This document shows, one piece after another, positions 1 to 14,318 of a DNA stretch of 64,000 nt. The DNA lies in assembly GCA_010015585.1 (NCBI GenBank), contig ML975171.1; one strand, given 5' to 3'. The stretch is from Eremomyces bilateralis CBS 781.70 (taxonomy: Eukaryota). Made by a program: the position numbers and the translations under genes. The notes beneath the pieces were generated by a model, which was not told where the DNA came from, made no database searches, and was given only the letters and a program-made list of their open reading frames with translations. The stretch's first letter is position 1, and each line of letters opens with the position of its first letter.

Positions 1-240
1 ACGTCGACGCTAGGTTGGCCATGCTGCTCAGCGTGGAAGAATGCTCTGCGCCAAGTATCCTTGAGCATATCTCTAACTCCTCCGCTTGCAGCTCTTCGGC
101 CTCCTTCCATCGGCCTTGATTCCTGTACGTCGACGCCAGGTTGGCCATGTTGGTCAGTGTGTCTGGATGCTCTGCGCCAAGCTCCTTCTTTTCCATCTCG
201 AGAACCTGGGAATAAGCGACCTCTGCCTCTCTCCATCGTC
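1..240 (-). repeat. 126-bp (42-aa) TPR tandem repeat array of the left NLR (partial)
   Basis: ATGCTCTGCGCCAAG recurs at 41 and 167 (period 126). Confidence 0.9.
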
Positions 241-2305
241 CGTCGGCGTCGAGGCACGTTCCATATCTCCATTGGAGATCTATCCTCTTCTTCAAATCCT
301 TCTGAACGAGGTCAGACTGTAGTACAACGCGCACGTGCGGCAGGTATGCCCTCCATATACTCCTGTTGGAGTGGGTATTGTCGGGGAAAATTTCCTCTAG
401 TCGCACGACTGCTTTCTCTGTCCACTGGACCAGTTGATCGTTCTCCTGAAGCCAGTTCCGAGTAGCTATATACACTAACCGATGAAGATCGACCGTATGA
501 CCTGCTGGACGTTTACTAATAAATGAATACGCGTAAAGCGTCCCGATAGCGTCTACCTCCTTCTTGCGAGATAGGCCGGGTGGAAAAAGACTCTGTGGGA
601 TATCTTTTGGCTCAATACATGCCATTAAAGACAAGTAGTCTGCTGCCAAAGAATCGTGCTGCTGAATTCGCTCGAACGATATTAGCCATGTTGTGGCTAC
701 TGGGTTCTTGATATTGCGGTATCTGCCGTCATCTTCAAAGTCTTCGCTCAGAAGTTCAATCATAGACTCATCCTGCTCATCAAGTAAGGAAAGATAGTCC
801 GCGATCGAGGTGCCGTTCGCATTGATATACGCTGCCGCCTGAACAATGGCGAGCGGGAGGTAAGTTAGCTGTATGAGTAAGGAATCAGTATCTGTTTGGC
901 AGGCAGCTACATCGTGTCCGATCAAGCATTTCTGTAATAGCTCTGAAGCCACCTCTGCGTTCATTTCCTGTACTTCTACCAAGTTCTGAGACGCCAGCTT
1001 GGTAGCAGCCTTCCTATCTCGCGTAGTAAAGAGGATACTTCCTCGCCTGCTCTTTGGAAGGTAGTCGAGGAGACGGAATGATTGTCTCTCAGCTGGTTTT
1101 CCCATCCACATATCCAAGTCGTCGGCGTTGTCAAACACCAGGAGCCACTGGCCCGCGCTTTCGTTACTGAGGTAGTTCTGAACTAGACGTTTCACGTCTG
1201 CTCCTTGCTCGTCTTTTCCAGGTATATCCAACTCTTCGGCGACTGCCGAGTACGCCTGAAGAAGGGTTTCGGGATCGGTTGCGGGAATCCAAAATACTGA
1301 GCAGTCCCTCTGTTTCTCCATGGTCCGATAGACCGTCTCAATCGCTAATTGTGTCTTCCCTACGCCTCCAAGCCCTGTAATTGCGACCTTTACGGTTTGG
1401 CCATGTCGAAAAAGTAGTTTTTCAATTCTAGAGAGTTCGGATTCGCGACCGGTGAAGCGAAGATTGCGCTCAAAGGGAATAGTACGTGCTAGCTTTTCGT
1501 CTAAACAATGGAACACATTAGCAAATGGAGATACAACATGAATAACAAAGACCTCACATGACCGCGATTTATGCTCAGAGTCCTTGATCTCTCGTCGCAA
1601 CCTTCTCATTGCATTCTCTTGCCCTTCGCCATATATAAGTGGCAAGAAAATGCCGAAAATTCCGAGGAGACAGTATGCCATGTCCTCCTCTTCGGTCGTT
1701 TGTCGCTTCTCGACCCATCGAAACCTCTCCTCAACGCTGAAGTCATGGAGAGGACGACGTTGGAGTGCCTCTATGGCGATTCCTGTTTCCTCGCAGATAT
1801 GTCGTTCAAGTGACTTTCTATCACCTAATCGGACGTGATCTCGGGAATAGAATTCGACTATTTTCGGCGCGAGAAGCTCTTGGAGTGTCCATCCTCGTCT
1901 AAACCATCGGTTATTGCGCAAAGACGACTCCCACTCGATATGTGCAGCCTGCCTATCCTGCGTGCGCACTGAAACGTCTAAGAGATAGACGTAGCATCGC
2001 GCTGCATTCTGGTACCAGCGAAACATAGAGTTTATCGCCTTCGTAAGTTCGTTGGGATCTGACTTGTCGATGCAGCATGTATCCACCCAGAAATAGGATA
2101 GACCGTCGGATTTGGCTTGACCCCCGCAGAATACCAGCTTGTGGTATCCAGCCTTATTCTTTCCAACACCGCCCACAACGTCCTTGAATGTGACTTCATC
2201 GCTGTCGCTTCCCCATGTATGAGAAAGTATGGCATAAGGAGGGATCGTGGTTCCGAAGGTCTCCAGGGTGAACCCGCCGTTGCCGTTGAGCTTTAAGAGG
2301 CGCAT
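1..2305 (-). CDS. NLR-like protein, HET - NB-ARC - TPR architecture (3' end runs off the window)
   Basis: Manual translation from ATG 2305: MRLLKLNGNGGFTLETFGTTIPPYAILSHTWG...FWVDTCCIDKSDPNELTKAINSMFRWYQNA (HET domain), IPFERNLRFTGRE, Walker A GLGGVGKT, Walker B LLVFDNADD, then 42-aa TPR units (LGAEHPDTLTNMANLASTYRNQGRWKEAEEL). Absent from the ORF track, consistent with no stop before the window edge. Candidate in-frame intron at 1501-1557. Confidence 0.93.
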   Translation of the reverse strand, partial: MRLLKLNGNGGFTLETFGTTIPPYAILSHTWGSDSDEVTFKDVVGGVGKNKAGYHKLVFCGGQAKSDGLSYFWVDTCCIDKSDPNELTKAINSMFRWYQNAARCYVYLLDVSVRTQDRQAAHIEWESSLRNNRWFRRGWTLQELLAPKIVEFYSRDHVRLGDRKSLERHICEETGIAIEALQRRPLHDFSVEERFRWVEKRQTTEEEDMAYCLLGIFGIFLPLIYGEGQENAMRRLRREIKDSEHKSRSCEVFVIHVVSPFANVFHCLDEKLARTIPFERNLRFTGRESELSRIEKLLFRHGQTVKVAITGLGGVGKTQLAIETVYRTMEKQRDCSVFWIPATDPETLLQAYSAVAEELDIPGKDEQGADVKRLVQNYLSNESAGQWLLVFDNADDLDMWMGKPAERQSFRLLDYLPKSRRGSILFTTRDRKAATKLASQNLVEVQEMNAEVASELLQKCLIGHDVAACQTDTDSLLIQLTYLPLAIVQAAAYINANGTSIADYLSLLDEQDESMIELLSEDFEDDGRYRNIKNPVATTWLISFERIQQHDSLAADYLSLMACIEPKDIPQSLFPPGLSRKKEVDAIGTLYAYSFISKRPAGHTVDLHRLVYIATRNWLQENDQLVQWTEKAVVRLEEIFPDNTHSNRSIWRAYLPHVRVVLQSDLVQKDLKKRIDLQWRYGTCLDADGRWREAEVAYSQVLEMEKKELGAEHPDTLTNMANLASTYRNQGRWKEAEELQAEELEICSRILGAEHSSTLSSMANLAST

Positions 2306-2611
2306 CGTTGGCCGTAGTAATCGACAGAGATTGTCATTATCGAGGAATCGTGACTGCTAGTCTGGGATATTCGAACAGCAGATTAGCAGGGTCGTAGACG
2401 CATCAAGACGAACCGCGACGATGTGAGGGGCTGACGGCTGACTTTTGTTCAAGATCATCTTAGATGGGGGTCATCGAAAAGCACGGATGTGCGGTGGTCA
2501 TTCAAATTCATATATCGACACAGTAATTATGAAAATACCTTCCAGGTTCCTGCTCTAGTCCCATCTAATTACTGTTCCTTCACACAGGGACACTCCACCC
2601 CACCCATAGAA

Positions 2612-2731
2612 TTATAAGAATTACAATATGTGTGGAGACTCTGAGTTGGGTTTGAAGTCAAAGTAATTACCCCGGATTCGTCCAAGCACAGCGGGTGTCC
2701 GATCAGTCCATCATGCAGTGGGGAAGGTTCG
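2612..2731 (+). repeat. Copy 1 of a ~110-bp dispersed repeat
   Basis: TTATAAGAATTACAATATG...CTGAG...TTTGAAGTCAAAGTA...GATTCGTCCAAGCACAGCGGGTGT...CCATCATGCAG...GGAAGGTT aligns with 2929-3035 (reverse) and 8662-8770. Confidence 0.85.
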
Positions 2732-2928
2732 TTGAATTTTCAAGAGTTCAAGACCAAGACCGACATCCACGATGTGCTAGCCATCCAGTCTAGCAAATAC
2801 TCCCGAATTCTGGGTCTTAAGGATGATGACTGCGGACTGGAGCTATCCATCTCGAGCAGTCTGGGACCTCACTACATCTACAATAGTAAGACAAAGCCCC
2901 ATCTCGCACATTCAAGTAACAAGATCTT

Positions 2929-3035
2929 CGTAACCTCCCCCCTGCGTGATGGAACACTCGCCGTGCTGGGACGAATCCAAGGTACTTTAACTTCAAACCG
3001 ACTCAGAGTCTGCACACACCTTATAATTCTTCTAA
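2929..3035 (-). repeat. Copy 2 (inverted) of the ~110-bp repeat
   Basis: Reverse complement reads TTAGAAGAATTATAAGGTGTGTGCAGACTCTGAGTCGGTTTGAAGTTAAAGTACCTTGGATTCGTCCCAGCACGGCGAGTGTTCCATCACGCAGGGG...GAGGTTACG. Confidence 0.85.
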
Positions 3036-3528
3036 TACTGTAAACTATGTTCTTCAACCAGTTCCCAATGTGCGGGACTATATCTACCTTCAATATTACA
3101 AAAGCCTGGTTACTAGTCGGCTAATTTCCGCAGAGTAATCGGAGTGCACTTGAGACGGCGTGGCAGTATTTTATGCTACAACGCCACTATCATCGTATTT
3201 TCTTTTAAAAAGATCACAAGCGGAACAAACTCATGCCATAGTATCCCGTTATTATGCTATAAATCCTTCGTCTAAAGTGTACGTTGTGTTGGAAACAATC
3301 TTAAATATTTCTACTACGCCGGTCGGTACTTGTGGTCGATCAAACTTCCGCTTTCGGCGATCCGTACAGCCAGGGGACTATGGATAAGTATTTTTATGGT
3401 AAACTAGCGCTGTCGATCTAAATTCTCTAATAGTGACGATGAAGTGAAGGAGTGAAGAGCGATGGTGGCTTAGAATTTAGAAGGTCCAACAACGAGGCTC
3501 CAACATCAACCTGATTAGTGTCTAGTTA

Positions 3529-5390
3529 AGACAGGACCCCCGGTTTGTAACCACCCCACTTTGTAACCAACTAAACCCCCTCAATCTGGAGATGAGACAG
3601 ATCAATAAAATACATCTACCACCACACAATCATGCTGTAACTGTGTCGAAATGCCTCCAGTTAATGAAGAGGCTATAAAGCTCGCGATTCAGGCTTATAT
3701 TAATAAAGAATTTGACTCTATACATAAGTGCGCGGACCAGTACGGTGTTACCTACTCCACGCTCCAAAAGCGCCTCCAAAACGACCGCCAATCGCACCAA
3801 ATTGGTGCTCAAAAGCTCCAGAAGCTGTCTCCTGTACAAGAACGATATCTAGCGGAATGGATAGCCCTGGAAGACCGGGCTTCGAATGCCCCCTCCCACG
3901 GCAGGGTTCGTCAAATGGCAGAAGCAATTGCCCGCGAAAATGGTGACCACACGCCTTGCGGGAAGAACTGGGTGGACGGATTCCTCAAGCGAAATCCCCA
4001 TATAAAAACTATGGTGGGCAAATCAATCGAAGCTTCCCGCGTAAATTGTTCGTCCAAGGAAATCATAGCGGCCTGGTTCAACCTTCTCCAGAGCCTGATC
4101 GACCAGTTTCACATCAAAACGGAGAATATCTGGAATTTCGACGAGCACGGGATTGCGCTTGGGTGCGGCGTAAATGGGCGTGTCTTAGCACCAATACAAG
4201 AGAAAAAGATGGGGAAGAACAGCAGGAAAAAGACCTATATCAAGACTCCGGAGGACCGCGAGTGGGTCTCCGTCATTGAGGCCATTTCAGCCGTTGGCCG
4301 CGCGATCTCTCCGCTCATCATCTTCAAGGGCAAAAACCTCCAATCTACGTGGTTCCCTGCGGATCTCTCGAGCACGAAGGACTGGCATTGGACAGTTTCA
4401 GAGAACGCCTGGACGTCAAACGAAATCGGGCTCAAATGGTTGGAGAAGAAGTTCCTCCCGGAGACCGCACCAAAAGACCGTACGGAATGGCGTCTCCTAA
4501 TTTGCGATGGGCACGGATCGCACGCGACGGTCGAGTTCATGAAGAAGTGTAAGGATAATAAGGTAATTGTCCTATATCTCCCTCCCCATTGCTCCCATCT
4601 GCTTCAGCCCCTAGATGTCGCTTGTTTTTCGGCCCTGAAGAGTAAATATCGCAAGGAATTAACCCAATTGAGCTCCCTCGACGACTCTGCCCCAGTTAAG
4701 AAGCATAATTTTATAAACATTTATAATAAATCCCGCATTGAAGCTTTGATAAACCATAATATCCGCGCTGGGTTCAGAGGCACCGGAATCTGCCCATTCA
4801 ACCCACACAAAGTATTAAATAGCACCCAATTAAACGAGAACCATACTATACAACGTCATGTGACCCCAGAGCCCATATATGATTATATATTTAATACACC
4901 CAAAGGCCCAAAAGACGTGTATACGGGGAAAAAGTTTGAGGACATGTCTGGACGGGATTTCAGGGGTTTACAGGGGAAATTGGCCAAGGCACTCTCAAAG
5001 AAGAACGTCGAAATCGCAGCACTGAAAGCGCAAGTTGCAAAGCTCGAAAAATCACTGGAAGACATAGGCGGATTGTCTAAGAAAAGGAAAAGAGTCCAAG
5101 TCGACCAAAATGAGCGATTTGCGACGATTGATCAGATTGTTGCTGCGCAAGAAGAAGCAAGACAAGCGGAGCTGAAGGAGGCGAAGAAGAAGCCCAAATT
5201 TGACGCGCAAAAAATTTCGGACGAGCTGCAAAAAGCAGAATTCGAATCACTTTGCTCACAGTTTCAGATATAATATATAAATTTCAATATTGGTGGAGTT
5301 ATTATACAGAATCTATAGTCCTCTGTTGTTGGTGTTGCTGCGTGTGAAGTGGTTACAAATCGGGGTGGTTACAAACCGGGGGTCCTGTCT
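3529..5390 (+). mobile_element. Full-length Tc1/mariner-superfamily Fot1/pogo-like DNA transposon, 1,862 bp
   Basis: 41-bp TIRs AGACAGGACCCCCGGTTTGTAACCACCCC..TTTGTAACCA at 3529-3569 and 5350-5390 (39/41 identical). TA duplication at 3527-3528 and 5391-5392. Internal transposase ORF. Confidence 0.96.
3651..5273 (+). CDS. Fot1/pogo-type DDE transposase (HTH + CENP-B-like HTH + DDE_1)
   Basis: 540-aa uninterrupted ORF with A..YGV.YSTL HTH, GKNWVDGFLKRNP, and catalytic motifs WNFDEHG / ICDGHGSH / QPLDV. Confidence 0.95.
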   Translation: MPPVNEEAIKLAIQAYINKEFDSIHKCADQYGVTYSTLQKRLQNDRQSHQIGAQKLQKLSPVQERYLAEWIALEDRASNAPSHGRVRQMAEAIARENGDHTPCGKNWVDGFLKRNPHIKTMVGKSIEASRVNCSSKEIIAAWFNLLQSLIDQFHIKTENIWNFDEHGIALGCGVNGRVLAPIQEKKMGKNSRKKTYIKTPEDREWVSVIEAISAVGRAISPLIIFKGKNLQSTWFPADLSSTKDWHWTVSENAWTSNEIGLKWLEKKFLPETAPKDRTEWRLLICDGHGSHATVEFMKKCKDNKVIVLYLPPHCSHLLQPLDVACFSALKSKYRKELTQLSSLDDSAPVKKHNFINIYNKSRIEALINHNIRAGFRGTGICPFNPHKVLNSTQLNENHTIQRHVTPEPIYDYIFNTPKGPKDVYTGKKFEDMSGRDFRGLQGKLAKALSKKNVEIAALKAQVAKLEKSLEDIGGLSKKRKRVQVDQNERFATIDQIVAAQEEARQAELKEAKKKPKFDAQKISDELQKAEFESLCSQFQI

Positions 5391-5625
5391 TACCTAACTA
5401 TTTGCTATAACTAACTACGGCTCTACTCTAACGCCGCCTTGGCTAGGCGCGGCTCTGCTACTCCGCCTCCCTTGCTGCCAGTCGTCAGCCCATATATACC
5501 CCAATCCATCCCAACTTCGAGTGCTTGTAAAGGCATCTCTGCGATGAATTGGTTCGATTGCCATCGGGTTCATGGCTCAAATCATCCTCTCGTGAGGCCC
5601 ACGCCTTCTTAAATCCAGTGTAACA

Positions 5626-8496
5626 ATGCGCCTTTTACAACTCGACGATTACCCCAGCTTCAGCCTGGCCGAGTTTGCCGAAGATGAGGTTCCTCGCTAT
5701 GCCATACTCTCGCACACTTGGGGACATGACGGCGATGAAGTCACGTACAAAGACATCACAGATGGCACTGGAAGTGGCAAGGCTGGCTACGACAAGCTCC
5801 ACTTCTGCGCAGTCCAAGCCAAGACTGACGGGCTGGGCTACTGCTGGATAGACACCTGTTGTATCGACAAGACAAATGCCGCCGAGCTTACCGAAAGTAT
5901 CAACTCCATGTTTCGATGGTACCAGAATGCCATCAAATGCTATGTTTTCCTTACGGATGTCTCGGCTTCTATGAGCGAAGATGACAGAGACTCCCAGCTA
6001 CGGAATAGTCGGTGGTTCACTCGAGGCTGGACGATACAAGAGCTCATTGCTCCCCGATGCGTCGAATTTTTCTCGCAAAAGCGCGAGCTGCTTGGAGACA
6101 GAAAGTCGCTAGAAAAGCAGATTCACCAAGTTGCTGGCATTTCCATTCACGCGCTTCGAGGGGAGCCGCTGTCTCACTTTACTATCGATGAGCGCATGTT
6201 ATGGGCGGCAAACAGAATAACCAAGCGACCCGAAGACAAAGTTTACTCTCTGCTTGGAGTTTTCGATATTCATATGGAAGCTATTTACGGCGAGGGCGAG
6301 CATCACGCATTTCGGCGGCTCCTTAGGGAGCTCGAGAGATATTCGGAAAACCACCAGTTAAGCGAGTTGTTTCGGGATCAACTACTAGTATCCTCCGCCA
6401 GACAGCCAAAAACACCCCTAGAAAATCCGACATGGGTTGTGCCGTTTGAGCGGAACTCTCGCTTCACTGGCCGTGAGCCTGAGCTGGCTCGGCTCGAAGA
6501 AATGCTGTTCAGCAAGCATCGTACCGCGAAGCTTGCGATCACTGGACTTGGAGGTGTAGGAAAGACCCAGCTTGTTATCGAGCTGCTGTACCGCGTCGCC
6601 GACAAGCAAAAGCACTGCTCGGTTATCTGGATTTCCGCAGTCAACATGGAAAGCCTACACCAATCATACTTGGACGCTACTCGGCAGCTTGGCATATCTG
6701 GATTTAAAGACAACAAGGCGGATATAAAGAGACTGGTGCAGGACCATCTGAGCAAAGAAAGTACAGGGCGGTGGCTGCTAGTGTTCGACAATGCCGACGA
6801 CATCTATATGTGGATTGCCAAGGCTGGACCTGGGCTGCAGCAGCCTGGGCAGGGATCGCACCCTTTGATCGACTACCTCCCAAAGAGTAAGCAAGGAGCT
6901 GTTATATTCACGACGCGGGACAGGAAGATAGCAGTCAAGCTCGCGCAACAGGACGTCGTGGACGTTCCGGAGATGGGAGAAGACGCGGCTTCCCAATTAC
7001 TAGGGAAGTGCCTGGTTAATACGGAGCTCGCCAAAAGCGGGAAAGAGACGGGTGCACTCCTTTTACAGCTCACCTACCTTCCGCTAGCCATTGTCCAGGC
7101 AGCGGCGTACATTAATGAGAATGCAATATTACTTACAGACTATCTGTCGCTCCTGGTCGAACAGGAGGAAGAGGTGATTGATCTCCTTAGCGAGGAGTTT
7201 GAAGACGACGGGAGGTATCGCGATATCAAGAATCCGGTAGCCACAACGTGGTTAATCTCGTTTGATCAAATCCGGCGGCGCGATCGGCTGGCGGCCGATT
7301 ACTTGTCGTTTATGGCCTGTGTAGAGCCAAAGGACATTCCACAGTCTCTTCTTCCGCCAGGGGCGTCGCGGAAGAAGGAGGTGGAAGCGATCGGAACACT
7401 TACCGCGTATTCGTTCGTCAATAGGCGGCCGGCCGACGAGTACCTCGATCTCCATCGGCTGGTGCATTTAGCAACGCGGAACTGGTTGCGGAAAGAAGAG
7501 CTGCTTGCGCAATTAACCGAGAAAACTATTATGCGACTAGAAGAAGTTTTCCCCGATGATAACCACGAGAACCGAAGCGTCTGGAGGGCTTACCTACCCC
7601 ATGCGCGCTATATGCTAGGGTCCAATCTTGTGGATAAAGATTGGAAACCCAGGATGGATCTTATGTGGAGGTACGGAATGTGTCTTTACAAAGATGGACG
7701 ATGGAATGAGGCTGAAGAACCGATTAATCAAGTGTTCGATATGGAGAAAAGAGTGCTTGGCGCGGAGCATCCCTCCACGCTGACCAGTATGGCCAACCTG
7801 GCGTCGACGTACAGGAATCAAGGCCGGTGGAAGGAGGCCGAAGAGCTGGAGGTGCAAGTGATGGAGACAAGAAAGAGGGTACTTGGCGCAGAGCATCCAG
7901 ACACGCTGAGCAGCATGGCCAATCTAGCGTCGACGTTTTGGAATCAAGGCCGATGGAAGGAGGCCGAAGAGNNNNNNNNNNNNNNNNNNNNNNNNNNNNN
8001 NNNNNNNNNNNNNNNNNNNNNNNNNNNNNNNNNNNNNNNNNNNNNNNNNNNNNNNNNNNNNNNNNNNNNNNNNNNNNNNNNNNNNNNNNNNNNNNNNNNN
8101 NNNNNNNNNNNNNNNNNNNNNNNNNNNNNNNNNNNNNNNNNNNNNNNNNNNNNNNNNNNNNNNNNNNNNNNNNNNNNNNNNNNCACGCTGACCAGCATGG
8201 CCAACCTGGCGTCGACGTTTTCGAATCAAGGCCGATGGAATGAGGCCGAAGAGTTAGAGGTGCAAGTGATGGAGACGAGAAAGAAGGTGCTTGGCGCAAA
8301 GCATCCAGACACGCTGACCAGCATGAACAATCTTGCCTTCACGTGGAAAGCGCAGGGTCGAGATCCAGAGGCTATCGGTCTAATGACGGAGTGTACACGG
8401 TTTCGAGAACGGGTTATAGGGGCTACCCATCCGCATTTCATTTCTTCCTCGAAAATCTTAGCGGATTGGGGCTTGAATGAGGCGCTCGTAAAATAG
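5626..8496 (+). CDS. NLR-like protein, HET - NB-ARC - TPR architecture (assembly gap in the TPR array)
   Basis: MRLL..YAILSHTWG..WIDTCCIDK..ELTESINSMFRWY..WFTRGWTIQELIAP (HET); VPFERNSRFTGRE; GLGGVGKT; WLLVFDNADD; LPLAIVQAAAYI; LHRLVH; TPR units LGAEHP(S/D)TL(T/S)SMANLAST..NQGRW.EAEEL. N-run at 7972-8183. Confidence 0.95.
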   Translation: MRLLQLDDYPSFSLAEFAEDEVPRYAILSHTWGHDGDEVTYKDITDGTGSGKAGYDKLHFCAVQAKTDGLGYCWIDTCCIDKTNAAELTESINSMFRWYQNAIKCYVFLTDVSASMSEDDRDSQLRNSRWFTRGWTIQELIAPRCVEFFSQKRELLGDRKSLEKQIHQVAGISIHALRGEPLSHFTIDERMLWAANRITKRPEDKVYSLLGVFDIHMEAIYGEGEHHAFRRLLRELERYSENHQLSELFRDQLLVSSARQPKTPLENPTWVVPFERNSRFTGREPELARLEEMLFSKHRTAKLAITGLGGVGKTQLVIELLYRVADKQKHCSVIWISAVNMESLHQSYLDATRQLGISGFKDNKADIKRLVQDHLSKESTGRWLLVFDNADDIYMWIAKAGPGLQQPGQGSHPLIDYLPKSKQGAVIFTTRDRKIAVKLAQQDVVDVPEMGEDAASQLLGKCLVNTELAKSGKETGALLLQLTYLPLAIVQAAAYINENAILLTDYLSLLVEQEEEVIDLLSEEFEDDGRYRDIKNPVATTWLISFDQIRRRDRLAADYLSFMACVEPKDIPQSLLPPGASRKKEVEAIGTLTAYSFVNRRPADEYLDLHRLVHLATRNWLRKEELLAQLTEKTIMRLEEVFPDDNHENRSVWRAYLPHARYMLGSNLVDKDWKPRMDLMWRYGMCLYKDGRWNEAEEPINQVFDMEKRVLGAEHPSTLTSMANLASTYRNQGRWKEAEELEVQVMETRKRVLGAEHPDTLSSMANLASTFWNQGRWKEAEEXXXXXXXXXXXXXXXXXXXXXXXXXXXXXXXXXXXXXXXXXXXXXXXXXXXXXXXXXXXXXXXXXXXXXXXTLTSMANLASTFSNQGRWNEAEELEVQVMETRKKVLGAKHPDTLTSMNNLAFTWKAQGRDPEAIGLMTECTRFRERVIGATHPHFISSSKILADWGLNEALVK
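7696..8350 (+). repeat. 126-bp TPR tandem repeat array of the right NLR
   Basis: CTTGGCGC.GAGCATCC at 7756 and 7882 (period 126), and a further unit after the gap. Confidence 0.9.
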
Positions 8497-8661
8497 AAGA
8501 GAGCAAAGAGCACGAGGAAGATAGCGCTATCGGGTAAAGTACAGTCGCTAAAACCCGAAATATATAGTCAGATGATTACCAGGTCTTCGTGGGGCTTCTA
8601 GAACTTCGTAAGTCTTGACCGTATGCTATATGCATCTCAGAAGCTATGGCAGGAAGTTGTG

Positions 8662-8770
8662 TTATAAGAATTACAATATGCATGGAGCCTCTGAGCTGTT
8701 TGAAGTCAAAGTACCTCGAGTTCGTTCCAGCACGGCGGGTGTTCCATCATGTAGGGGTGGAAGGTTACGT
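8662..8770 (+). repeat. Copy 3 of the ~110-bp repeat
   Basis: TTATAAGAATTACAATATGCATGGAGCCTCTGAGCTGTTTGAAGTCAAAGTACCTCGAGTTCGTTCCAGCACGGCGGGTGTTCCATCATGTAGGGGTGGAAGGTTACGT, about 165 bp after the right NLR stop. Confidence 0.85.
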
Positions 8771-9261
8771 GGTTTTCCCGTTCCAATAAAGACTATCTCT
8801 TGCTGCGCAGGAAGAGAGTTGACGACTCCTTATTGGCCAAGTTTCACTCAGAGGTGGAAAATGTTACGAAGGCGGCGAACCACTTCCGAACCGTAGAATT
8901 GAAGGTAAGCTGGCCGTCGCTGAACAGCATTATCACAGTAATGGAGATCGGCTCTGATCAATGGGACCAAAGAACGATCAGACGGCAGCTTCGCTGCATC
9001 CGGAACTGTGTTCTAGAAGCCATGAAGGAGTCGGGCCGTATGCGACATGAATTGGCGACACAAAGTAGCCGTAATGGTCCAGATGAAGAAAAGGACGAAG
9101 CGTCGCGGAAAGATCATCCAGACATTCAAGCCGATGTCAAGTCGTTCGATCAACTCTTAAAATAGGGGCAGAGTCCATTTCATGAGTACCGCCGACTCCT
9201 CGCGCTCGTCGGGCAGGACAGATATGCTGTTGCCTTAAAACAAGGCGTGTCTTGTCTCTGC

Positions 9262-10543
9262 CTAAAACGATGTCTGAACTTCCAGTAGACACCTTCCGAC
9301 TCCGCCAGCATCTTGTCCAAGATCAAAGTCGACAATTTCCCAAGCGACTCCACCGCCGTGGCCGATCTCCTGTCGAAACTCCTGCACTCCGCCTCCGACT
9401 CCAAAATAGACCTTCTTTGCAGCAATGATTGCTTTGCCCATTGATACTGGGCGCAGGGTATCCATCAGGACTGCAGAAAAGGTTTTTAGAGATGGGATGG
9501 AGTAGATCGTCTCTGACGCGACTACGAATGTGTTTAACTTGGCGGATGCGCCGTTAGTAGGGAAAAGAGACAGGAAAGGTGATGGAGGACACCAAGATCC
9601 CGATATAAGTGTCAAGTGAACTCCCGATTCCGATAGGTTCGCTAGGAACATTTCCTTCAGGGCCTCGGTAACGATGAGGTCTTCCGTCTGCCACTCTTCA
9701 TCTGGATCTGCATCGTTGAGGTTTGCTAGGGGATTCGGCTCACTCTCCGAGAACGGGTGTTCCGTTGCAGGGAGAGTGGAGCAGTATGTGAGGAATAGGT
9801 TTGGAAAAGAACAGGTGCGGAGGACGGAGGCGTTATAGTCGGTCAGGGTGAAGTACATCTGTAATGAGTTCACAAGAGCGTACTGGAACATAAGAAGGGT
9901 CGGGAGTGCCGTGCCACAGCCGAACTATCTGCTAGTTAATACTGAACTTTGCTTCTCACCTTCATACACTCATAAGGGCATTACCTCAATGATGTGATTC
10001 ACACGGCATAAATCGTCCAGATCTTTCCTAGGTCCTCGGTCTAGTAAATACTTGACGAGATCTATTGAACATTCCCAGCTCTTGAAACCGCCTTCGTAGA
10101 CATTTGTGGTGAGGTCCGAGTTGTCGAGCCCTTCGAGCGGCGCATTGGAGTCTCCCACATCTTCTGCCATCAACTGCATTCGGATATCAAACAGTTCTCT
10201 CCTAGGCAGCCGGATCCGGTGGCCCTGTGGAGACTCGATAGTGATGACATTATAAGATAACCTGGATGGGAGGCTCTCGACCTGATGGTGTTTCAGCAAA
10301 TGATTTTCGCTGGTCCAAAGTGTTTCAAGGCATGTAGTAAAAGCAATTGACTTTGCGGTAGAAAAGGTTGCATAAAAAGTTGGAAATACCTACAAGCTCC
10401 CTGATATCATGAGATTTGGGTGGCACCGACGGCTGGACCTCGCCCTCCGCCGTATCTATACTGCTCCCTTCCCCGGGTGTTTGAAGGTCATTTTCGTCGG
10501 CTTCAATATCATCTCCTCCAAATCCGAAGGCAAAGGACGACAT
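9262..10543 (-). CDS. HPM1: Histidine protein methyltransferase (Hpm1/METTL18-like), 3 exons
   Basis: MSSFAFGFGGDDI N-terminus, VYEGGFKSWECSIDL, spliced SAM motif I E|FGCGTALP, DYNASVL, ASETIYS, AAKKVYFGVGGG. Confidence 0.85.
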
Positions 10544-11197
10544 AGAGCAGATGTCCGGTATGGACTCCCAGTTCCCACCAAGGCCTCAACCTCGACGGTC
10601 AAATGCCAGGAATGGGGACTTTACACAAAAAGAGAACGAGATGTCAACTCAGAAATGGAAAGAAAGTACCGTAATACCCAGCTGACTTGCTCAGTTCGTC
10701 TACTCATATGAGAATTACAATATTACTTGGAGCCAACGGGATGTAAAACCTGAACATGGGGCAAAGCTGTGGACCATTTTTAGGTTCCGTTGGTAGGTGT
10801 ACCTCTAGAGTAATTAGTGCCAAACCCTGGGAACGTCACGAACAATTTTGGTCTACACACATTGGGCATTGTGCAACGAAACTGAGGATCTAGCCGTCAT
10901 TTGCTTTTCCCCTAATAGAATACTCAGTAATTATGTGCAATCAGGCTGTTGTGCTGCTGTGGTCCCCGGAGACGACGTCGGAGCCCCACTTAATCCCGAG
11001 AGACAGTCCGTGACAGTGAAGTTGGGGGAAATGGGGATCCGATAATGGGAAAGAAGGAGCTTCGGACAATAAAGATGGAATTAAACCGTAATATAAAATG
11101 ATAGATATCATGATGTTGGAATTAAGCATCCTATTTACAAAATTCCATACAACATCGGACATTATTCCTGAACCTCCTTGATTGCCCTGATATCAAC

Positions 11198-11854
11198 ATG
11201 GCTGGAAACATCACCTTCGACGGTATGTACGGCGCCAAGCCCCCAAGAAGCGCATACTCCTAACATTTCTTAGACTACCTCGGCCTCACCACCGCTCTCT
11301 TCGAATGGGCCGATTCCTACGACTCCAAAGACTGGGCCCGCCTCGCCAAATGCATCGCCCCAACCCTCCGGATCGACTACCGCTCCTTCCTCGACAAGAT
11401 ATGGGATGCGATGCCCGCGGACGAGTTCCTCGCCATGGCATCCGACCCGACCGTCCTCGGCGACCCGACGTTGAAGACCCAGCACTTCATCGGCGGCACG
11501 CGCTGGGAGAAAGTGTCTGAGGACGAGGTCATCGGCTACCATCAGCTGCGCGTCCCGCATCAGAAGTATACTGACGCGACACTGAAGGAGGTGGCGGTGA
11601 AGGGGCATGCGCATTCGACGAATATTCATTGGTATAAGAAGGTCGATGGCGTGTGGAAGTTCGCGGGCCTGAGTCCGGATATTCGATGGTTTGAGTATGA
11701 CTTTGAGAAGGTCTTTGCTGCCGGCCGCGAGGCGCATGGGGAGAAGAAGAATGAGGTCGTGTCGGCTGAGAAGACGGCGGCGGAGGTCGTGGTGAAGGAG
11801 ATTGGGGTGCCCGACCTTGCGAAGCAGGCCAGCGGCATTCCCGGGCAGGGATGA
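11198..11854 (+). CDS. SCD1: Scytalone dehydratase (DHN-melanin pathway)
   Basis: [76 protein letters not shown]; intron 11223-11273. Confidence 0.95.
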
Positions 11855-12205
11855 TTTCGTGACACCTTGGTCGGGGTGACTGGAGACATTCTGGAAGGCC
11901 TCATAGAGTGCAAGCATTGAAGCTAATGAGATCAATTGCCGTGGGCGACCAGATCAGCGCTTTCACTTTCAATATCTCTAAGGAACAGAAGGATATGGTC
12001 TCACAATCATCGAGCTCTCCTAGTTGCAGTAGCATAATATACATTTAAAAATTAAGGTCCAAGCATATATACATACGTTTGCTAAGTAACGCTTCCACCA
12101 ATGAGGTATTCATCGGCCCCAAGATTACGCCGTCCGCTTCCGCTTAAGAGTACTGAACGCCATCTGCCCGCTTCCAATATGATCAAACAAAAACCAAAGC
12201 CATCC

Positions 12206-13429
12206 TCAAGATGGCGTTCTCCAATTCTTGTACAGGCAACTACACAGGTTACCTCCATCGCCTGCACCAATCGACTGTGTTGCACCGTTCTCAATCCTCT
12301 CCCAGTTGTCGTCCCGATAGCAGTTAGGAATGCCCTCGCCTGCAGAAATGACTTCTTCGGCACGAATTGCATAGGGCCACAGATCATGCGCCGGATCTCC
12401 ATTCGTCGCCATCCGGTCATTAGGATAGTCTCTCGCCATCTTCGTGTATAGGAATCCGGTGAACGTAGTTGCGTTAAAGTAGCATGTCGCTCCAACGTTG
12501 TCGCCGGTCAAAGATGCCGTTGGTTTGACCATCTTGTCCGTGGTTACTTGGAAGCGATATCGCTCGGAGTCCTTGCCTTGGTCGAGGAGGGCCAAACGCG
12601 CATTCTGGAAATTCAAAGCAGCCAAAGAGTTGTCGGCACTAGAAATCACCCAATTTCCAGACGACGGTTCCGAGATCGTCCAGTTGAAGGTCGCGAGAGA
12701 TTGTTCGGGTGAAGTGTTGTAGATCGTATATGGGGGGCAGCGCCAGATGTCAGGATTTGAGGTGCAGTTCGTTTGGATCGTGTCTAGGAAGGTGGTCATG
12801 GAATATGTTCCCAGAGGAAAGTCCTTAGGCGGAGGGTTTGCTCCCGAAGTACCGGGTAGAGAAGTAGATGGATTCGAAGTGGACTGGTTTGGGTCTGGTA
12901 CATCTAGGCTGTTGAATGTGAGCGCAGGTTTGCAGTCGGTTGACGGGTAAACGAACCTCGGAGAGCTTCCTCTACTCAGTCCGACGCCTAGTCCGACAGC
13001 CAGAGCTATGATAATCAAGACGATTACCACTATGATGAGCAGGATGCGCTTCCGCCTCCCTCGATCTGAGAATAATCTTTTCCCTCTCAAGGTGGCCATG
13101 GGCCCTCGCTTCTCCTCCGGGACACTTCCCAGCTCGCTCCAGATACTGGTAGTATATAGACCCCTCAAACCACCACCATTTGAAAACGCCTTGTTTTCCA
13201 GGCTCTCCCTCGGCGGCTCCCCAAAGCCAAACGAGCTCCTCATCGGCGTGAAGATCGAGGTTCGATTCGAAAACCTTCCCGAGCTTCTTTTTGACGAGGT
13301 CTCTCCAGCATTAGAGGCACGATTATCCATGATGACAGAGAGGCGCTCCCCGGCTGGAGTAGATATCCGTTTTGCTGGCGATTCATCATCGTTGGGCAGC
13401 GAGAGTTGGACGCGCCCGTTCTCCGTCAT
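12206..13429 (-). CDS. Hypothetical type II single-pass membrane protein with a Cys-containing C-terminal domain
   Basis: 407-aa ORF with basic RRKR followed by the TM segment ILLIIVVIVLIIIALAVGLGVGL, and WRCPPY / CSCLYKNW motifs. Probable short in-frame intron near 12908-12955. Confidence 0.75.
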   Translation of the reverse strand: MTENGRVQLSLPNDDESPAKRISTPAGERLSVIMDNRASNAGETSSKRSSGRFSNRTSIFTPMRSSFGFGEPPRESLENKAFSNGGGLRGLYTTSIWSELGSVPEEKRGPMATLRGKRLFSDRGRRKRILLIIVVIVLIIIALAVGLGVGLSRGSSPRFVYPSTDCKPALTFNSLDVPDPNQSTSNPSTSLPGTSGANPPPKDFPLGTYSMTTFLDTIQTNCTSNPDIWRCPPYTIYNTSPEQSLATFNWTISEPSSGNWVISSADNSLAALNFQNARLALLDQGKDSERYRFQVTTDKMVKPTASLTGDNVGATCYFNATTFTGFLYTKMARDYPNDRMATNGDPAHDLWPYAIRAEEVISAGEGIPNCYRDDNWERIENGATQSIGAGDGGNLCSCLYKNWRTPS

Positions 13430-14318
13430 CTTGATCAGACGGCGGCGATCCTACGCCAAATTAACAGTCGCGAGACGTCGCTCTTGCGAGCATTCGGATT
13501 CGAGTCGGCCTGCGAGGGCGTGAAATGGAAGCTTCCCGCTTCTTGTGAGGGACCAGGACAACAGACAGGGTCGCAACTCGTGTCTTCGTGCCTCGTGGGG
13601 ATCTACGCAAGGGTTCAGGGATGGAAGCTGGTCGGTTCAAGCTGCAAGGAACCAGGCTCGACTGCGTCGCGTTATTCGGCTCTGAACATCGCATAAGTAT
13701 GGAACGAAGATCAATTGACATGCACAATGTAGAGCAAGAGTAGAATAAGGTTGCAAAGACTCAATGTACAACAATGACTCTTCAAGCACGGTGAAGAATT
13801 GAGAAACGGCAGCAATCGGGGCGCGTGCCCTAATGGGACGATGTGAATGAGCACCATTTGTCCGGTGGAGCAAGCAGCCGTCCTGCCAGGCAGCGCCATG
13901 AAAATATTGGACAGGGGCGAGGAGATCTATCCTCTACAAATCACAATTGTCATCAGGGGGTTCCACTTGGGGAGTTGGGGATCGCCATGGCGATCCAGTC
14001 TGAGGCTAGCCAAAGCGCCACGATGTTGTTCTAAGGTGAATCGAGCAATGAAACAAATTAATCATCAAGAATGAAGACAGACCAGTGATCACGTGTTGCT
14101 GCGACTCGTCAACAATTCACGGCCTGGCGCCCTGGCCTAGCAACAAGCTGACATAATGACATGCGATGCTGACCTCCTCGCTGTATTCCGTACCTTCAAG
14201 ATACTGGCATATCAAATCTATAAGGCACAATAATTTGACATCCAAGAAAAGAGCTTAGGAATGAGGCCTTCCCATGTGGCCTAAGTAATAAGACCCAATC
14301 AACCCCGAGGTCTGCAAC

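What the first reader, a model, noticed from the sequence alone, without database searches (positions are those of the whole stretch)
1..8350. Near-identical TPR units in two inverted paralogs: possible repeat-swapping or inversion cassette
Seen: the HET and NB-ARC regions of the two genes are clearly diverged, yet the TPR DNA is almost the same. The left unit has ATGGCCAACCTGGCGTCGACGTACAGGAATCAAGGCCGATGGAAGGAGGCCGAAGAGCTG and the right has the same string with one substitution (CGG for CGA). Differences cluster at a few codons (TYR/TFW/TFS, TSM/SSM/TNM, EVQVMET/QAEELEI). Established: fungal NLR repeats evolve concertedly with hypervariable positions (Podospora het-d/het-e WD40). Inference: the arrays are inverted repeats about 7.5 kb apart, so a crossover would flip the intervening segment and swap distal TPR sensor arrays between the two HET-NB-ARC heads. 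That would be a shufflon-like way to generate new specificities without losing DNA.
Basis: partly seen in the sequence, partly recalled or inferred. Interest (0 to 1): 0.8.

Follow-up and report, generated by a model that had tools for sequence, protein, structure and literature searches.

The report
Head-to-head fungal NLR pair, shared repeats
Two neighbouring, oppositely oriented fungal immune-receptor-like genes keep their sensor repeats alike by DNA exchange, a known habit of such genes; their tail ends look swapped between them, but nothing shows a working flip switch.

Summary
Window 1-8496 holds two divergently transcribed HET/NB-ARC/TPR NLR genes (A, minus, 2305..2; B, plus, 5626-8496), with an intact pogo-type transposon between them. 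The protein database labels B as Eremomyces bilateralis. Synonymous differences are saturated in the heads (pS 0.74-0.77) and low in the canonical TPR units (pS 0.19; Fisher p 3e-11). "Almost the same" overstates it: whole units are 84% identical, and an 11-codon helix-B block is unrelated. Only about 1.2 units of A and 2.5 of B are visible. B's array has a 212-N gap and A's appears to have one at the window start.

The pattern is the known concerted evolution of highly conserved fungal NLR repeats. It is family-wide: each visible unit is closer to a unit of an unlinked paralog than to the neighbour's, and read depth on the units is tens of times single-copy. I found no recombinase, no specific sites and no contig showing the other orientation.

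The C-terminal caps are reciprocally mismatched with the heads (AU p 0.01 and 0.0002), as a single past crossover between the inverted arrays would produce. Frequent 3'-end replacement in the family and the assembly gaps keep this at about 0.3.

The parts
2..2305 (-). Gene A: a HET / NB-ARC / TPR fungal NLR with an open frame of 768 codons. Its 3' end lies left of the window.
   Evidence: The ORF runs off the window. Pfam: HET 1.3e-12, NB-ARC 8.4e-11, TPR_12 1.4e-19, TPR_10 1.8e-11. The database model P0121 (792 aa, same 365,953-nt contig) continues beyond the window.
149..274 (-). A_U0: the first, degenerate TPR unit of A. It stays with the head.
   Evidence: pS against B_U0 is 0.76 and identity 84/126. 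Its nearest relatives are A-clade paralogs.
23..148 (-). A_U1: the only complete canonical 126-nt (42-aa) unit of A in the window.
   Evidence: 106/126 to B_U1. The first 60 nt match at 59/60; the helix-B block QAEELEICSRI differs. Its nearest protein unit is in unlinked P0108, 36/42.
2..22 (-). A_U2: the first 7 codons only, cut by the window start. An assembly gap probably lies here.
   Evidence: 20/21 to B_U2, sharing the CTA Leu codon. The P0121 model jumps mid-unit exactly here, from MANLAST to VLGAEHPDTLSS.
2608..3039 (.). Two inverted copies (2608-2729 plus strand, 2929-3039 minus strand) of a ~115-nt dispersed repeat, arranged like a foldback or MITE, in the A-side intergenic region.
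   Evidence: blastn self-comparison gives 76-80% identity. Alignment shows 80% mean column identity over 3 copies. No Rfam family matched.
3523..5396 (+). An intact pogo/Fot1-type DNA transposon with 47-nt TIRs, TA at both ends and a 540-aa transposase ORF at 3651-5273.
   Evidence: TIR arms are 3523-3569 and 5350-5396, 94% complementary. Pfam: DDE_1 5.4e-38, HTH_Tnp_Tc5, HTH_psq. The TA flanks are read directly from the sequence. Summed depth is 3-13 times single-copy in runs X2 and X3.
5626..8496 (+). Gene B: a HET / NB-ARC / TPR fungal NLR. The frame is open through the N run.
   Evidence: ORF. Pfam: HET 2.1e-11, NB-ARC 1.5e-8, TPR_10 9e-26. It corresponds to database model P0001, 852 aa, which skips the gap.
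7663..7788 (+). B_U0: the first, degenerate TPR unit of B.
   Evidence: Its nearest relatives are P0002 and the unlinked paralog P0021, not the B-clade orthologs.
7789..7971 (+). B_U1 (7789-7914) and the first 57 nt of B_U2 (7915-7971): canonical units.
   Evidence: TRF finds period 126, 1.8 copies, 85% matches. Unit matrix.
7972..8183 (.). An assembly gap of 212 N inside B's TPR array. The number of units hidden is unknown.
   Evidence: 57+212+13 = 282 nt is not a multiple of 126.
8197..8322 (+). B_Un-1: the last canonical unit of B.
   Evidence: 113/126 to B_U1 and 95/126 to A_U1. It shares the unusual LGAKHPDTLTS tail with the last unit of P0002.
8323..8496 (+). The C-terminal cap unit of B ('type I', ...HPHFISSSKILADW...) plus the stop codon.
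   Evidence: Translation. The cap groups with caps of the A-clade paralogs P0107 and P0108, not with caps of B-clade orthologs.
8659..8769 (+). The third copy of the ~115-nt dispersed repeat, downstream of B.
   Evidence: The read joints at about 8662-8700 fall inside this copy.

Best explanation
The locus is a head-to-head pair of anciently diverged paralogous fungal NLR (STAND) genes. Each has a HET cell-death domain, an NB-ARC switch and a sensor array of kinesin-light-chain-type 42-residue TPR units. The genes are 3.3 kb apart, and an intact pogo-type transposon has inserted between them.

The canonical units of both arrays belong to one genome-wide family of highly conserved repeats. This family is kept alike at the DNA level by recombination (unequal crossing-over and ectopic gene conversion), within arrays and between NLR paralogs, including unlinked ones. 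Meanwhile a few surface positions and a helix-B block vary. That is the concerted evolution already described for fungal NLR repeats. It explains why the TPR DNA is alike while the heads are saturated.

The inverted arrangement is a by-product of gene order, not a dedicated inversion cassette. No programmed or recombinase-driven flipping is indicated.

Shown here: the domain architecture, the dS contrast, the sharing of units with unlinked paralogs, and the mosaic 3' regions. Inferred: the recombination mechanism itself, and the function, taken to be ligand sensing by the TPR array leading to HET-mediated cell death, by analogy with Podospora HET-E/D/R.
For: Architecture:
- Pfam HET, NB-ARC and TPR_10/12 match both genes.
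- The TPR array of paralog P0067 matches kinesin light chain structures (7ai4, E 6.6e-42) and the Podospora 42-residue repeat protein 4y6c (E 1.5e-26).

Homogenisation:
- pS is 0.19 in U1 plus partial U2, against 0.75 over 672 non-TPR codons. Fisher p is 2.6e-11.

Family-wide sharing:
- At least 8 further HET/NB-ARC/TPR proteins labelled with the same species lie on 6 other contigs.
- All 3 complete canonical window units have a closer protein-level unit in an unlinked paralog than in the neighbour gene.
- The A-clade head P0107 carries RWDAAEEL...KLGADHPDTL units typical of the unlinked P0067.
- In Zopfia the A-type and B-type relatives lie on different contigs, yet both carry METFKRVLG units.
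- Summed depth on the TPR bins is 7,939-13,978 in run X2, against 230-265 for single-copy contigs. A loose end at 7956 reads on into a unit variant; by my translation of the listed letters it is the RWDAAEEL type seen in P0067 and P0107.

Mosaicism beyond the arrays:
- B's last ~90 residues before the canonical units are nearest to the unlinked paralog P0021.

Literature, passages read:
- TPR repeats of fungal NLRs show high internal conservation, repeat-number polymorphism and positive selection (PMC4986451).
- Such NLRs exchange repeats between paralogs and collocate with transposons (PMC13449251).
- Repeats with identical nucleotide sequence occur between het-e and nwd6 despite diverged heads (PMC12222747).
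Against: - DNA of the other paralogs could not be obtained. Sharing 'equally well' is therefore shown only at protein level and by contig depth, which the tool warns is not a copy number.
- The consensus unit is also almost identical in protein sequence in another genus: B_U1 matches units of the Zopfia proteins P0100 and P0026 at 40/42. Protein similarity alone therefore cannot show exchange.
- The DNA argument rests on only 49 aligned codons.
- A_U1/B_U1 and A_U2/B_U2 share register-specific synonymous states (CTG in both U1, CTA in both U2). This hints at direct A-B exchange in register, but it is a single site.
- The reciprocal cap mismatch is not predicted by non-reciprocal conversion alone.
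Confidence: 0.72

Rival explanations
1. One historical inversion. A single reciprocal crossover between the two inverted TPR arrays flipped the head-containing segment in an ancestor of this strain. The B-clade head thereby received the distal array and cap that had belonged to the A-clade gene, and vice versa. The swap predates the duplication that gave P0002. This is compatible with the best explanation as an added event.
For: - Head tree (31 rows): A lies in a 6-row A clade (SH-aLRT 100), and B plus P0002 lie inside an 18-row B clade (99).
- Cap tree (25 caps): A's cap falls in an 11-row group (86/82) with 10 caps whose heads are B-clade. B's cap and P0002's group with the caps of the A-clade paralogs P0107 and P0108 (86/98).
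- AU tests reject head-consistent cap groupings: p 0.0104 for A + P0107 + P0108, and p 0.00015 for 11 B-clade heads.
- Cap identities: A's cap matches P0015 at 37/50 and P0097 at 35/50, but B's cap only at 26/50. B's cap matches P0107 at 39/50 and P0108 at 35/50.
- In both genes the switch lies inside the unresolved arrays, where a crossover would be.
- B-head with cap I occurs at two loci (B and P0002), which share the LGAKHPDTLTS last unit. This argues against a scaffolding error.
- A word-limited search found no other protein of this species with a type II cap: 3 hits among 7 candidates.
Against: - 3'-end replacement is common in this family without any known partner. Of 16 B-clade heads with a cap, 10 have type II, 4 have other types (P0008, P0012, P0014, P0016) and 2 have type I. 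Two separate non-reciprocal events are therefore plausible.
- The link between A's head and its cap crosses an apparent assembly gap and a gene-model jump.
- The cap alignment has only 56 columns, the key groups are not starred, and I had read the cap sequences before naming the groups.
- The A/B pairing is not seen in Zopfia, where the two types lie on different contigs.
- Rows left out of the cap tree: P0102 (cap start broken in its model) and the cap-less or frameshifted models P0003, P0004, P0007, P0021, P0034, P0100, P0106 and P0122.
Confidence: 0.3
2. An active flip-flop. The segment between the arrays inverts recurrently, somatically or at meiosis, reassorting the sensor arrays between two heads as a diversity generator.
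For: - The geometry allows in-frame exchange.
- Homologous-recombination inversions that recur are documented in fungi, at the MAT loci of S. sclerotiorum and H. polymorpha (passages read).
- The cap mismatch shows that exchange of the distal ends happened at least once by some route.
- The hidden parts of both arrays could hold longer identical stretches.
Against: - The visible arms are 208 nt at 82%, with at most 38 nt exact. The documented cases use identical 250-bp or >2-kb repeats.
- There is no recombinase or dedicated site.
- The caps have diverged since the swap. B's cap matches P0108's at 35/50, while A's head is 91% identical to P0108's. B's duplicate P0002 keeps the same combination. 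The arrangement has therefore been stable for a long time.
- The 'opposite strands' joints in the reads touch about 3280 and 8662-8700, not the arrays. Their 8662-8700 side lies in a dispersed ~115-nt repeat.
Confidence: 0.05
3. Assembly artefact. The 7,971-nt contig between the two gaps is mis-oriented in the scaffold, or the arrays were mis-assembled from reads of many paralogs. The cap mismatch and part of the unit similarity would then not be real.
For: - Both ends of window 1-7971 end in near-identical inverted TPR sequence next to gaps.
- Short-read assemblies of highly conserved NLR repeats omit or create repeats (PMC12222747, passages read).
- Contigs of all four runs break at the arrays.
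Against: - B-head with a type I cap is found independently in P0002 on another contig.
- A P0002-type contig is visible in run X2, carrying a 6-nt insertion behind 5712 that matches the extra HT in P0002.
- B_Un-1, to the right of the gap, is closer to B_U1 (113/126) than to A_U1 (95/126).
- Units U0 and U1 are contiguous with unique head sequence.
Confidence: 0.1
4. No exchange at all. Purifying selection on a consensus TPR, plus codon preference, keeps the unit DNA alike.
For: The consensus unit is nearly identical in protein sequence across genera, at 40/42.
Against: - Selection on the protein does not hold synonymous sites. pS is 0.19 in the units, against 0.74-0.77 in conserved head domains of the same genes and 0.76 in the neighbouring unit U0.
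- The shared codons include non-preferred-looking ones (AAT, CAA, CGA, GAA). I did not compute codon usage.
Confidence: 0.03

Closest known systems
Podospora anserina HNWD/NWD genes (het-e, het-d, het-r: HET/NACHT/WD40) with highly internally conserved repeats
   Same: - An N-terminal HET domain, a STAND NTPase and 42-residue (126-nt) sensor repeats.
- Repeats alike at DNA level while the heads are diverged.
- Exchange within and between paralogs, and variable surface positions.
Source: passages of PMC4986451, PMC13449251 and PMC12222747.
   Different: - Here the NTPase is NB-ARC, not NACHT, and the repeats are TPR, not WD40.
- No incompatibility phenotype is known.
- The two genes are adjacent and head-to-head.
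Fungal NB-ARC/TPR NLRs with highly conserved 42-residue TPR motifs (Dyrka et al. 2014; Podospora repeat protein, PDB 4y6c/4y6w)
   Same: - The same repeat type: kinesin-light-chain-like TPR_10/TPR_12.
- Arrays of paralog P0067 match 4y6c at E 1.5e-26.
- Repeat-number polymorphism and positive selection on the concave face are reported for such arrays.
   Different: Internal conservation cannot be measured properly here, because both arrays are broken by gaps. Selection on positions was not tested.
Head-to-head NLR pairs: plant sensor/helper pairs, and the rare fungal pairs in Sordariales
   Same: Two NLRs in inverted tandem with a short shared upstream region. In Sordariales, 13 of 225 two-NLR clusters were head-to-head (PMC12258605, passage read).
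   Different: - Both partners here have the same complete tripartite architecture. There is no integrated decoy and no division into sensor and helper.
- The pairing is not seen in Zopfia, where the A-type and B-type relatives lie on different contigs.
Homologous-recombination inversions at fungal MAT loci (S. sclerotiorum 3.6-kb region; Hansenula/Ogataea polymorpha)
   Same: A segment flanked by inverted repeats that lie partly in coding sequence. The inversion changes which gene parts are joined or expressed, and no site-specific recombinase is known.
   Different: - Those repeats are identical 250-bp or >2-kb sequences, and both orientations were observed.
- Here the visible arms are 82% alike with at most 38 nt exact.
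- No second orientation was seen.
Bacterial shufflons and invertons
   Same: Only the idea that inversion reassorts the C-terminal, specificity-determining parts of a protein.
   Different: Those systems need a dedicated tyrosine or serine recombinase and short specific sites. Neither is present here.

Membership tests
Fungal NLR (STAND) of HET / NB-ARC / TPR architecture | N-terminal HET domain | tested here: met
   PF06985 matches A at 1.3e-12 (48.7 bits; cut-off 22.5) and B at 2.1e-11 (44.8 bits).
Fungal NLR (STAND) of HET / NB-ARC / TPR architecture | Central NB-ARC NTPase with a P-loop | tested here: met
   PF00931 matches A at 8.4e-11 and B at 1.5e-8, both above the 23.5-bit cut-off. GLGGVGKTQ and LLVFDNADD are present in both translations.
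Fungal NLR (STAND) of HET / NB-ARC / TPR architecture | C-terminal superstructure-forming repeats | tested here: met
   TPR_10 and TPR_12 score above their cut-offs in both genes. The period is 126 nt.
Highly internally conserved (HIC) NLR repeats, by the Dyrka et al. 2014 criterion | Over 85% amino-acid identity between repeats, over at least 100 residues in total | tested here: inconclusive
   B_U1 matches B_Un-1 at 36/42, or 86%. Only 2 complete units plus 19 residues are visible in B, and 1 complete unit in A, because of the gaps.
Highly internally conserved (HIC) NLR repeats | Repeat DNA homogenised relative to the rest of the gene, and between paralogs | tested here: met
   pS is 0.19 in the units against 0.75 elsewhere, p 2.6e-11.
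Highly internally conserved (HIC) NLR repeats | Repeat-number polymorphism between strains | not testable with these tools
   Only contigs of runs of one species label were available, and they break at the arrays.
Programmed inversion system (shufflon or inverton type) | A dedicated site-specific recombinase encoded at or near the locus | tested here: not met
   21 ORF translations in the window were scanned with Pfam. The only DNA-cutting enzyme is a pogo-type DDE_1 transposase inside its own TIRs.
Programmed inversion system (shufflon or inverton type) | Both orientations present in a population of cells | tested here: inconclusive
   No contig of 4 runs bridges an array. The only strand-changing joints lie at about 3280 and 8662-8700, with the latter side in a dispersed repeat.
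Homologous-recombination flip-flop (fungal MAT type) | Long, near-identical inverted repeats flanking the segment | tested here: inconclusive
   The visible arms are 208 nt at 82%, with a longest exact run of 38 nt. The rest of both arrays is hidden in gaps.
Sensor/helper paired NLRs (plant type) | Head-to-head orientation with a short shared intergenic region | tested here: met
   The start codons are at 2305 (minus strand) and 5626 (plus strand). They are 3,320 nt apart, of which 1,872 nt are the transposon with one TA.
Sensor/helper paired NLRs (plant type) | Functional asymmetry (an integrated decoy or a degenerate partner) and conserved pairing | tested here: not met
   Both genes have the same three domains. 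The Zopfia relatives lie on contigs of different length. No divergent pair was found among the 32 metagenome loci with a HET match.

The most novel reading that the evidence does not exclude
The head-to-head pair is a recombination-driven flip-flop. Crossovers between the two inverted TPR arrays have inverted the ~7.6-kb head segment at least once, swapping the distal sensor arrays and caps between a HET/NB-ARC head of clade A and one of clade B. They still do so at a measurable rate among strains or nuclei. One locus can thus present four head-sensor combinations without loss of DNA.
Probability: 0.08. Interest if true: 0.8.

Novelty: new variant of a known kind. Interest (0 to 1): 0.42.

Why it matters
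Concerted evolution of NLR sensor repeats in fungi is established, so the main observation adds one more example. It comes from a little-studied Dothideomycete and involves TPR rather than WD40 repeats.

The arrangement is less ordinary. Two ancient paralogs sit head-to-head, and their C-terminal caps are reciprocally mismatched with their heads. If a long-read assembly confirms this and dates it to a single inversion, it would be a concrete case of whole sensor arrays being exchanged between NLR heads by a DNA-conserving rearrangement. So far such exchange has been discussed for fungal NLRs only as non-reciprocal repeat exchange. My two literature searches on this point and term searches in three NLR papers found no mention of inversion.

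The locus is also a practical warning. Both arrays are broken by gaps in a short-read assembly, and several gene models of the family read the repeats in a shifted frame.

Tried and rejected
- **Whole genome.** None is held for this window. DNA of the other paralogs, and of the sequence left of the window, was therefore not available.
- **Sequencing runs.** Six were listed and no RNA holder was listed. X1 is only guessed to be RNA, so I say nothing about expression.
- **Laying contigs of X1-X4 on 1-9000 at 85% likeness.** No record bridges either array, so orientation and unit number could not be read. I considered the joints 3280->8700 and 3286->8662 ('opposite strands', side 51-62) and 2310->8698 and 2650->8700 (skips) as possible inversion evidence and rejected them. 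None touches the arrays. All reach 8662-8700, inside a ~115-nt dispersed repeat that also occurs at 2608-2729 and 2929-3039. The reference contig 2285-3556 is intact at single-copy depth. The most likely source is paralogous loci carrying that repeat. The joint 7876->7788, with 37 other letters between, is a variant unit from another array.
- **Metagenome scan with B.** It returned 35 loci, none a close full-length relative. The best were L014 (92% over 109 residues), L032 (87% over 84 residues) and L001 (79% over 284). Only L005 has any DNA likeness to the units, 80-83% over 46-55 nt. No divergent NLR pair occurs in the 32 loci with a HET match; there is one same-strand pair, L026. This is no help for cross-species DNA comparison.
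- **Search with A's cap.** Only 7 candidates shared words, so the absence of other type II caps in the species is weak evidence.
- **Rfam on 1-9500.** Nothing found.
- **Earlier findings of the scan.** Nothing by place, by sequence or by words.
- **Not done.** I did not fold a structure to map variable positions, because the tool returns no coordinates. I did not use contig co-occurrence to test synteny of the flanks in relatives, because it cannot give orientation.

Full report
**What is there**

Window 1-8496 carries two long open frames on opposite strands that point away from each other. Gene A runs on the minus strand from 2305 to 2 and off the window. Gene B runs on the plus strand from 5626 to 8496. 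Both match Pfam HET, NB-ARC and TPR_10/TPR_12 above the curated cut-offs, so both are fungal NLR-type STAND proteins.

Between them lies a 1.87-kb element. It has 47-nt terminal inverted repeats (3523-3569 and 5350-5396, 94% complementary) and TA at both ends (sequence). It holds an intact 540-aa ORF with DDE_1, HTH_Tnp_Tc5 and HTH_psq domains. This is a pogo/Fot1-type transposon.

The rest of the window encodes housekeeping proteins: kinesin, a YME1-type protease, PIG-V, a kinase, a cation-efflux protein and scytalone dehydratase. There is no other NLR.

The protein database holds B's gene model as P0001, labelled HET-domain protein of Eremomyces bilateralis CBS 781.70, on a contig of 365,953 nt. 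A's model is P0121 on the same contig.

**The observation**

None is expected by chance. The arms 1-208 and 7729-7936 are inverted repeats, 82% alike and 7520 nt apart.

I made a codon alignment of the two genes and computed Nei-Gojobori proportions:

| Region | Codons | pS |
|---|---|---|
| HET | 244 | 0.77 |
| NB-ARC | 211 | 0.76 |
| Helical domain | 180 | 0.74 |
| First, degenerate TPR unit U0 | 42 | 0.76 |
| Canonical units U1 + 7 codons of U2 | 49 | 0.19 (6.5 of 33.8 synonymous sites) |

The contrast with the 672 non-TPR codons (344 of 458 sites) gives Fisher p 2.6e-11. No 42-codon window outside the array falls below pS 0.59. The core observation is therefore real: the canonical repeat DNA is homogenised and the heads are saturated.

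**Qualifications**

A_U1 and B_U1 match at 106/126. The first 60 nt match at 59/60, and the last 33 nt differ only at codons 37-38 (my reading of the codons printed). Codons 21-31 (QAEELEICSRI against EVQVMETRKRV) are essentially unrelated; the last 66 nt as a whole match at 47/66.

Very little of either array can be seen. A is cut after one complete canonical unit plus 21 nt. B's array contains 212 N at 7972-8183, whose length does not fit the 126-nt period. A's database model jumps mid-unit exactly at the window start, from MANLAST to VLGAEHPDTLSS. B's model does the same across its N run. A gap therefore most probably lies immediately left of the window.

The window piece 1-7971 is thus a contig flanked by gaps on both sides. 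Both its ends lie in inverted copies of the same repeat. The longest exact match between the arms is 38 nt.

**Is the similarity special to this pair?**

As far as it can be tested, no. The database lists at least eight further HET/NB-ARC/TPR proteins with the same species label, on six other contigs. P0002, P0021 and P0067 came from the search with B; P0106, P0107, P0108 and P0122 are A-type.

At protein level A_U1 is nearest to a unit of unlinked P0108 (36/42), against 31/42 to B_U1. B_U1 matches units of P0002 and P0021 at 39 and 38 of 42. It matches units of the Zopfia rhizophila proteins P0100 and P0026, which lie in other head clades, at 40/42.

P0107, an A-clade head, carries the RWDAAEEL...KLGADHPDTL unit type of unlinked P0067. 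In Zopfia the A-type (P0102) and B-type (P0003) relatives lie on contigs of different length, yet both carry METFKRVLG units. Units thus resemble each other within a genome across unlinked paralogs.

I laid the contigs of four public runs on 1-9000 at 85% likeness. In run X2 the summed depth was 11,186, 13,978 and 7,939 in the three TPR bins, against 230-265 for contigs that match single-copy parts without a difference. Run X3 gave 3,878-7,903 against 178. The tool warns that this is not a copy number. It does show that far more repeat DNA of this type exists in the genome than these two arrays hold. One loose end at 7956 reads on into a unit variant; by my translation of the listed letters it is the RWDAAEEL type of P0067 and P0107.

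The mosaicism extends beyond the arrays. B's last ~90 residues before the canonical units are nearest to the unlinked paralog P0021, not to B's orthologues.

**Comparison with what is known**

This is the regime described for fungal NLRs. In passages of Dyrka et al. 2014 (PMC4986451), 21% of TPR domains of fungal NLRs show high internal conservation, with repeat-number polymorphism and positively selected positions on the concave face. Recombination within loci, and possibly between them, is proposed.

[quoted passage not shown] They also warn that short-read assemblies omit or create such repeats.

The repeat type is the kinesin-light-chain-like 42-residue TPR. The array of paralog P0067 matches KLC1 (7ai4, E 6.6e-42) and the Podospora repeat protein 4y6c (E 1.5e-26).

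Head-to-head NLR pairs are known but rare in fungi: 13 of 225 two-NLR clusters in Sordariales (PMC12258605).

**The inversion idea**

The geometry is correct: a crossover between the arrays would flip about 149-7788 and join each head in frame to the other's distal array. I found nothing that marks a dedicated system.

- There is no recombinase among the 21 ORF translations scanned.
- There are no special sites.
- The visible arms are far poorer substrates than those of documented fungal inversions. Those use identical 250-bp repeats at the S. sclerotiorum MAT locus and >2-kb repeats in H. polymorpha (passages).

The reads could not test orientation, because every contig stops at the arrays. 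Four joints that superficially look like rearrangements do not touch the arrays: 3280->8700 and 3286->8662 on opposite strands, and 2310->8698 and 2650->8700 as skips. All reach a ~115-nt dispersed repeat at 8659-8769. Further copies of that repeat lie at 2608-2729 and, inverted, at 2929-3039. The reference arrangement across 2285-3556 is intact at single-copy depth. I read these joints as coming from paralogous loci that carry that repeat.

The last, degenerate cap unit does not follow the head.

In a tree of the heads (31 proteins, 617 columns), A lies in a six-member A clade (SH-aLRT 100). B, with its 97%-identical duplicate P0002, lies deep inside an 18-member B clade (99).

In a tree of 25 caps (56 columns), A's cap falls in an 11-row group (86/82) with ten caps that belong to B-clade heads of other species. 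B's and P0002's caps group with those of the A-clade paralogs P0107 and P0108 (86/98).

AU tests reject keeping the caps of A, P0107 and P0108 together (p 0.0104). They also reject keeping the caps of eleven B-clade heads together (p 0.00015).

Raw identities agree:

| Cap compared | Matches over 50 positions |
|---|---|
| A vs P0015 | 37 |
| A vs P0097 | 35 |
| A vs B | 26 |
| B vs P0107 | 39 |
| B vs P0108 | 35 |

The mismatch is reciprocal, and in both genes the switch lies inside the unresolved arrays. One crossover between the inverted arrays, that is an inversion, explains it in a single step.

The combination of a B head with a type I cap is unlikely to be a scaffolding error, because P0002 on another contig has it too. 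P0002 also shares the unusual LGAKHPDTLTS last unit. A P0002-type contig, with a 6-nt insertion matching its extra HT, is visible in run X2.

**Why I do not make this the main explanation**

- Cap replacement is frequent in the family. Of 16 B-clade heads with a cap, 10 have type II, 4 have other types and 2 (B and P0002) have type I. Two independent non-reciprocal events are therefore a realistic alternative.
- The link between A's head and its cap crosses the presumed gap and a gene-model jump.
- The cap alignment is short, the key groups are not starred, and I had read the cap sequences before naming the groups. The groups were, however, defined by the head clades.
- Rows left out of the cap tree were P0102 (cap start broken in the model) and the cap-less or frameshifted models P0003, P0004, P0007, P0021, P0034, P0100, P0106 and P0122.
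- The swap is old, if it happened. B's cap is 35/50 to P0108's while A's head is 91% identical to P0108's, and the duplicate P0002 keeps the same combination. This speaks against ongoing flipping.

**Verdict**

Its best explanation is the known, family-wide concerted evolution of highly conserved NLR repeats (confidence 0.72). A single historical inversion that swapped the distal arrays is a plausible added event (about 0.3). An active shufflon-like cassette is unlikely (about 0.05).

A long-read assembly and orientation-specific PCR would settle all three.

Noticed in passing
window 3523-5396: An intact pogo/Fot1-type transposon (47-nt TIRs, TA flanks, 540-aa DDE_1 ORF) sits in the shared upstream region of the two NLR genes. 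Its summed depth in DNA runs X2 and X3 is about 3-13 times single-copy. Run X4, labelled as a different organism, holds pieces of it with 1 difference in 432 nt and 2 in 388 nt at depth ~5, and otherwise covers only multi-copy parts of the stretch. This could be low-level cross-contamination or a shared, possibly transferred, element.
   Followed up: partly
window 2608-2729 (+), 2929-3039 (-), 8659-8769 (+): Three copies of a ~115-nt dispersed repeat, 76-80% alike. Two form an inverted pair 200 nt apart, like a foldback or MITE, upstream of gene A. One lies downstream of gene B. There is no Rfam match. Read joints from other loci end in it.
   Followed up: partly
P0002 (another contig, 357,934 nt) compared with window 5626-8496: Gene B has a near-identical duplicate elsewhere in the genome: the head is 97% identical, with the same cap type, an extra HT after residue 29 and two internal deletions in the model. 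No A-type partner is listed on that contig. In runs X2 and X3 the contigs over B's head differ from the window at 4-12 places per ~0.4-1.3 kb, while X1 shows none. This possibly reflects collapsed paths between the two copies.
   Followed up: partly
window 5626-7660 (B head) compared with P0003, P0004, P0009, P0011: B's HET/NB-ARC head is 79-85% identical in protein to homologues labelled Zopfia, Glonium, Trematosphaeria and Mytilinidion. It is only 57% identical to its neighbour A. This is an unusually well conserved NLR head across distant Dothideomycetes.
   Followed up: no
window 1-465 (+), 7724-8299 (-), 7827-8243 (+); models P0021, P0122, P0003: The TPR unit DNA is open in several frames and on the antisense strand. 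Several database gene models of the family end in a shifted-frame reading of the repeats (...HGQPGVDV.ESRPMEGGRRAG...). This points to frameshifts or assembly errors in the arrays.
   Followed up: no
window 31185-31329: A second assembly gap of 145 N.
   Followed up: no
window 11411-11854 (+): An ORF matching scytalone dehydratase (PF02982, E 1.4e-60), a melanin-pathway enzyme, lies 3 kb downstream of gene B.
   Followed up: no
window 6643-7584: In X1, X2 and X3, a contig of 1.6-1.7 kb lies on B's NB-ARC/helical region with 128 differences and 5 gaps in 942 nt (86%) and stops at 7584. It is probably the unlinked paralog P0021, whose C-terminal half is much closer to B than its HET domain is. 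That would make P0021 itself a mosaic.
   Followed up: partly
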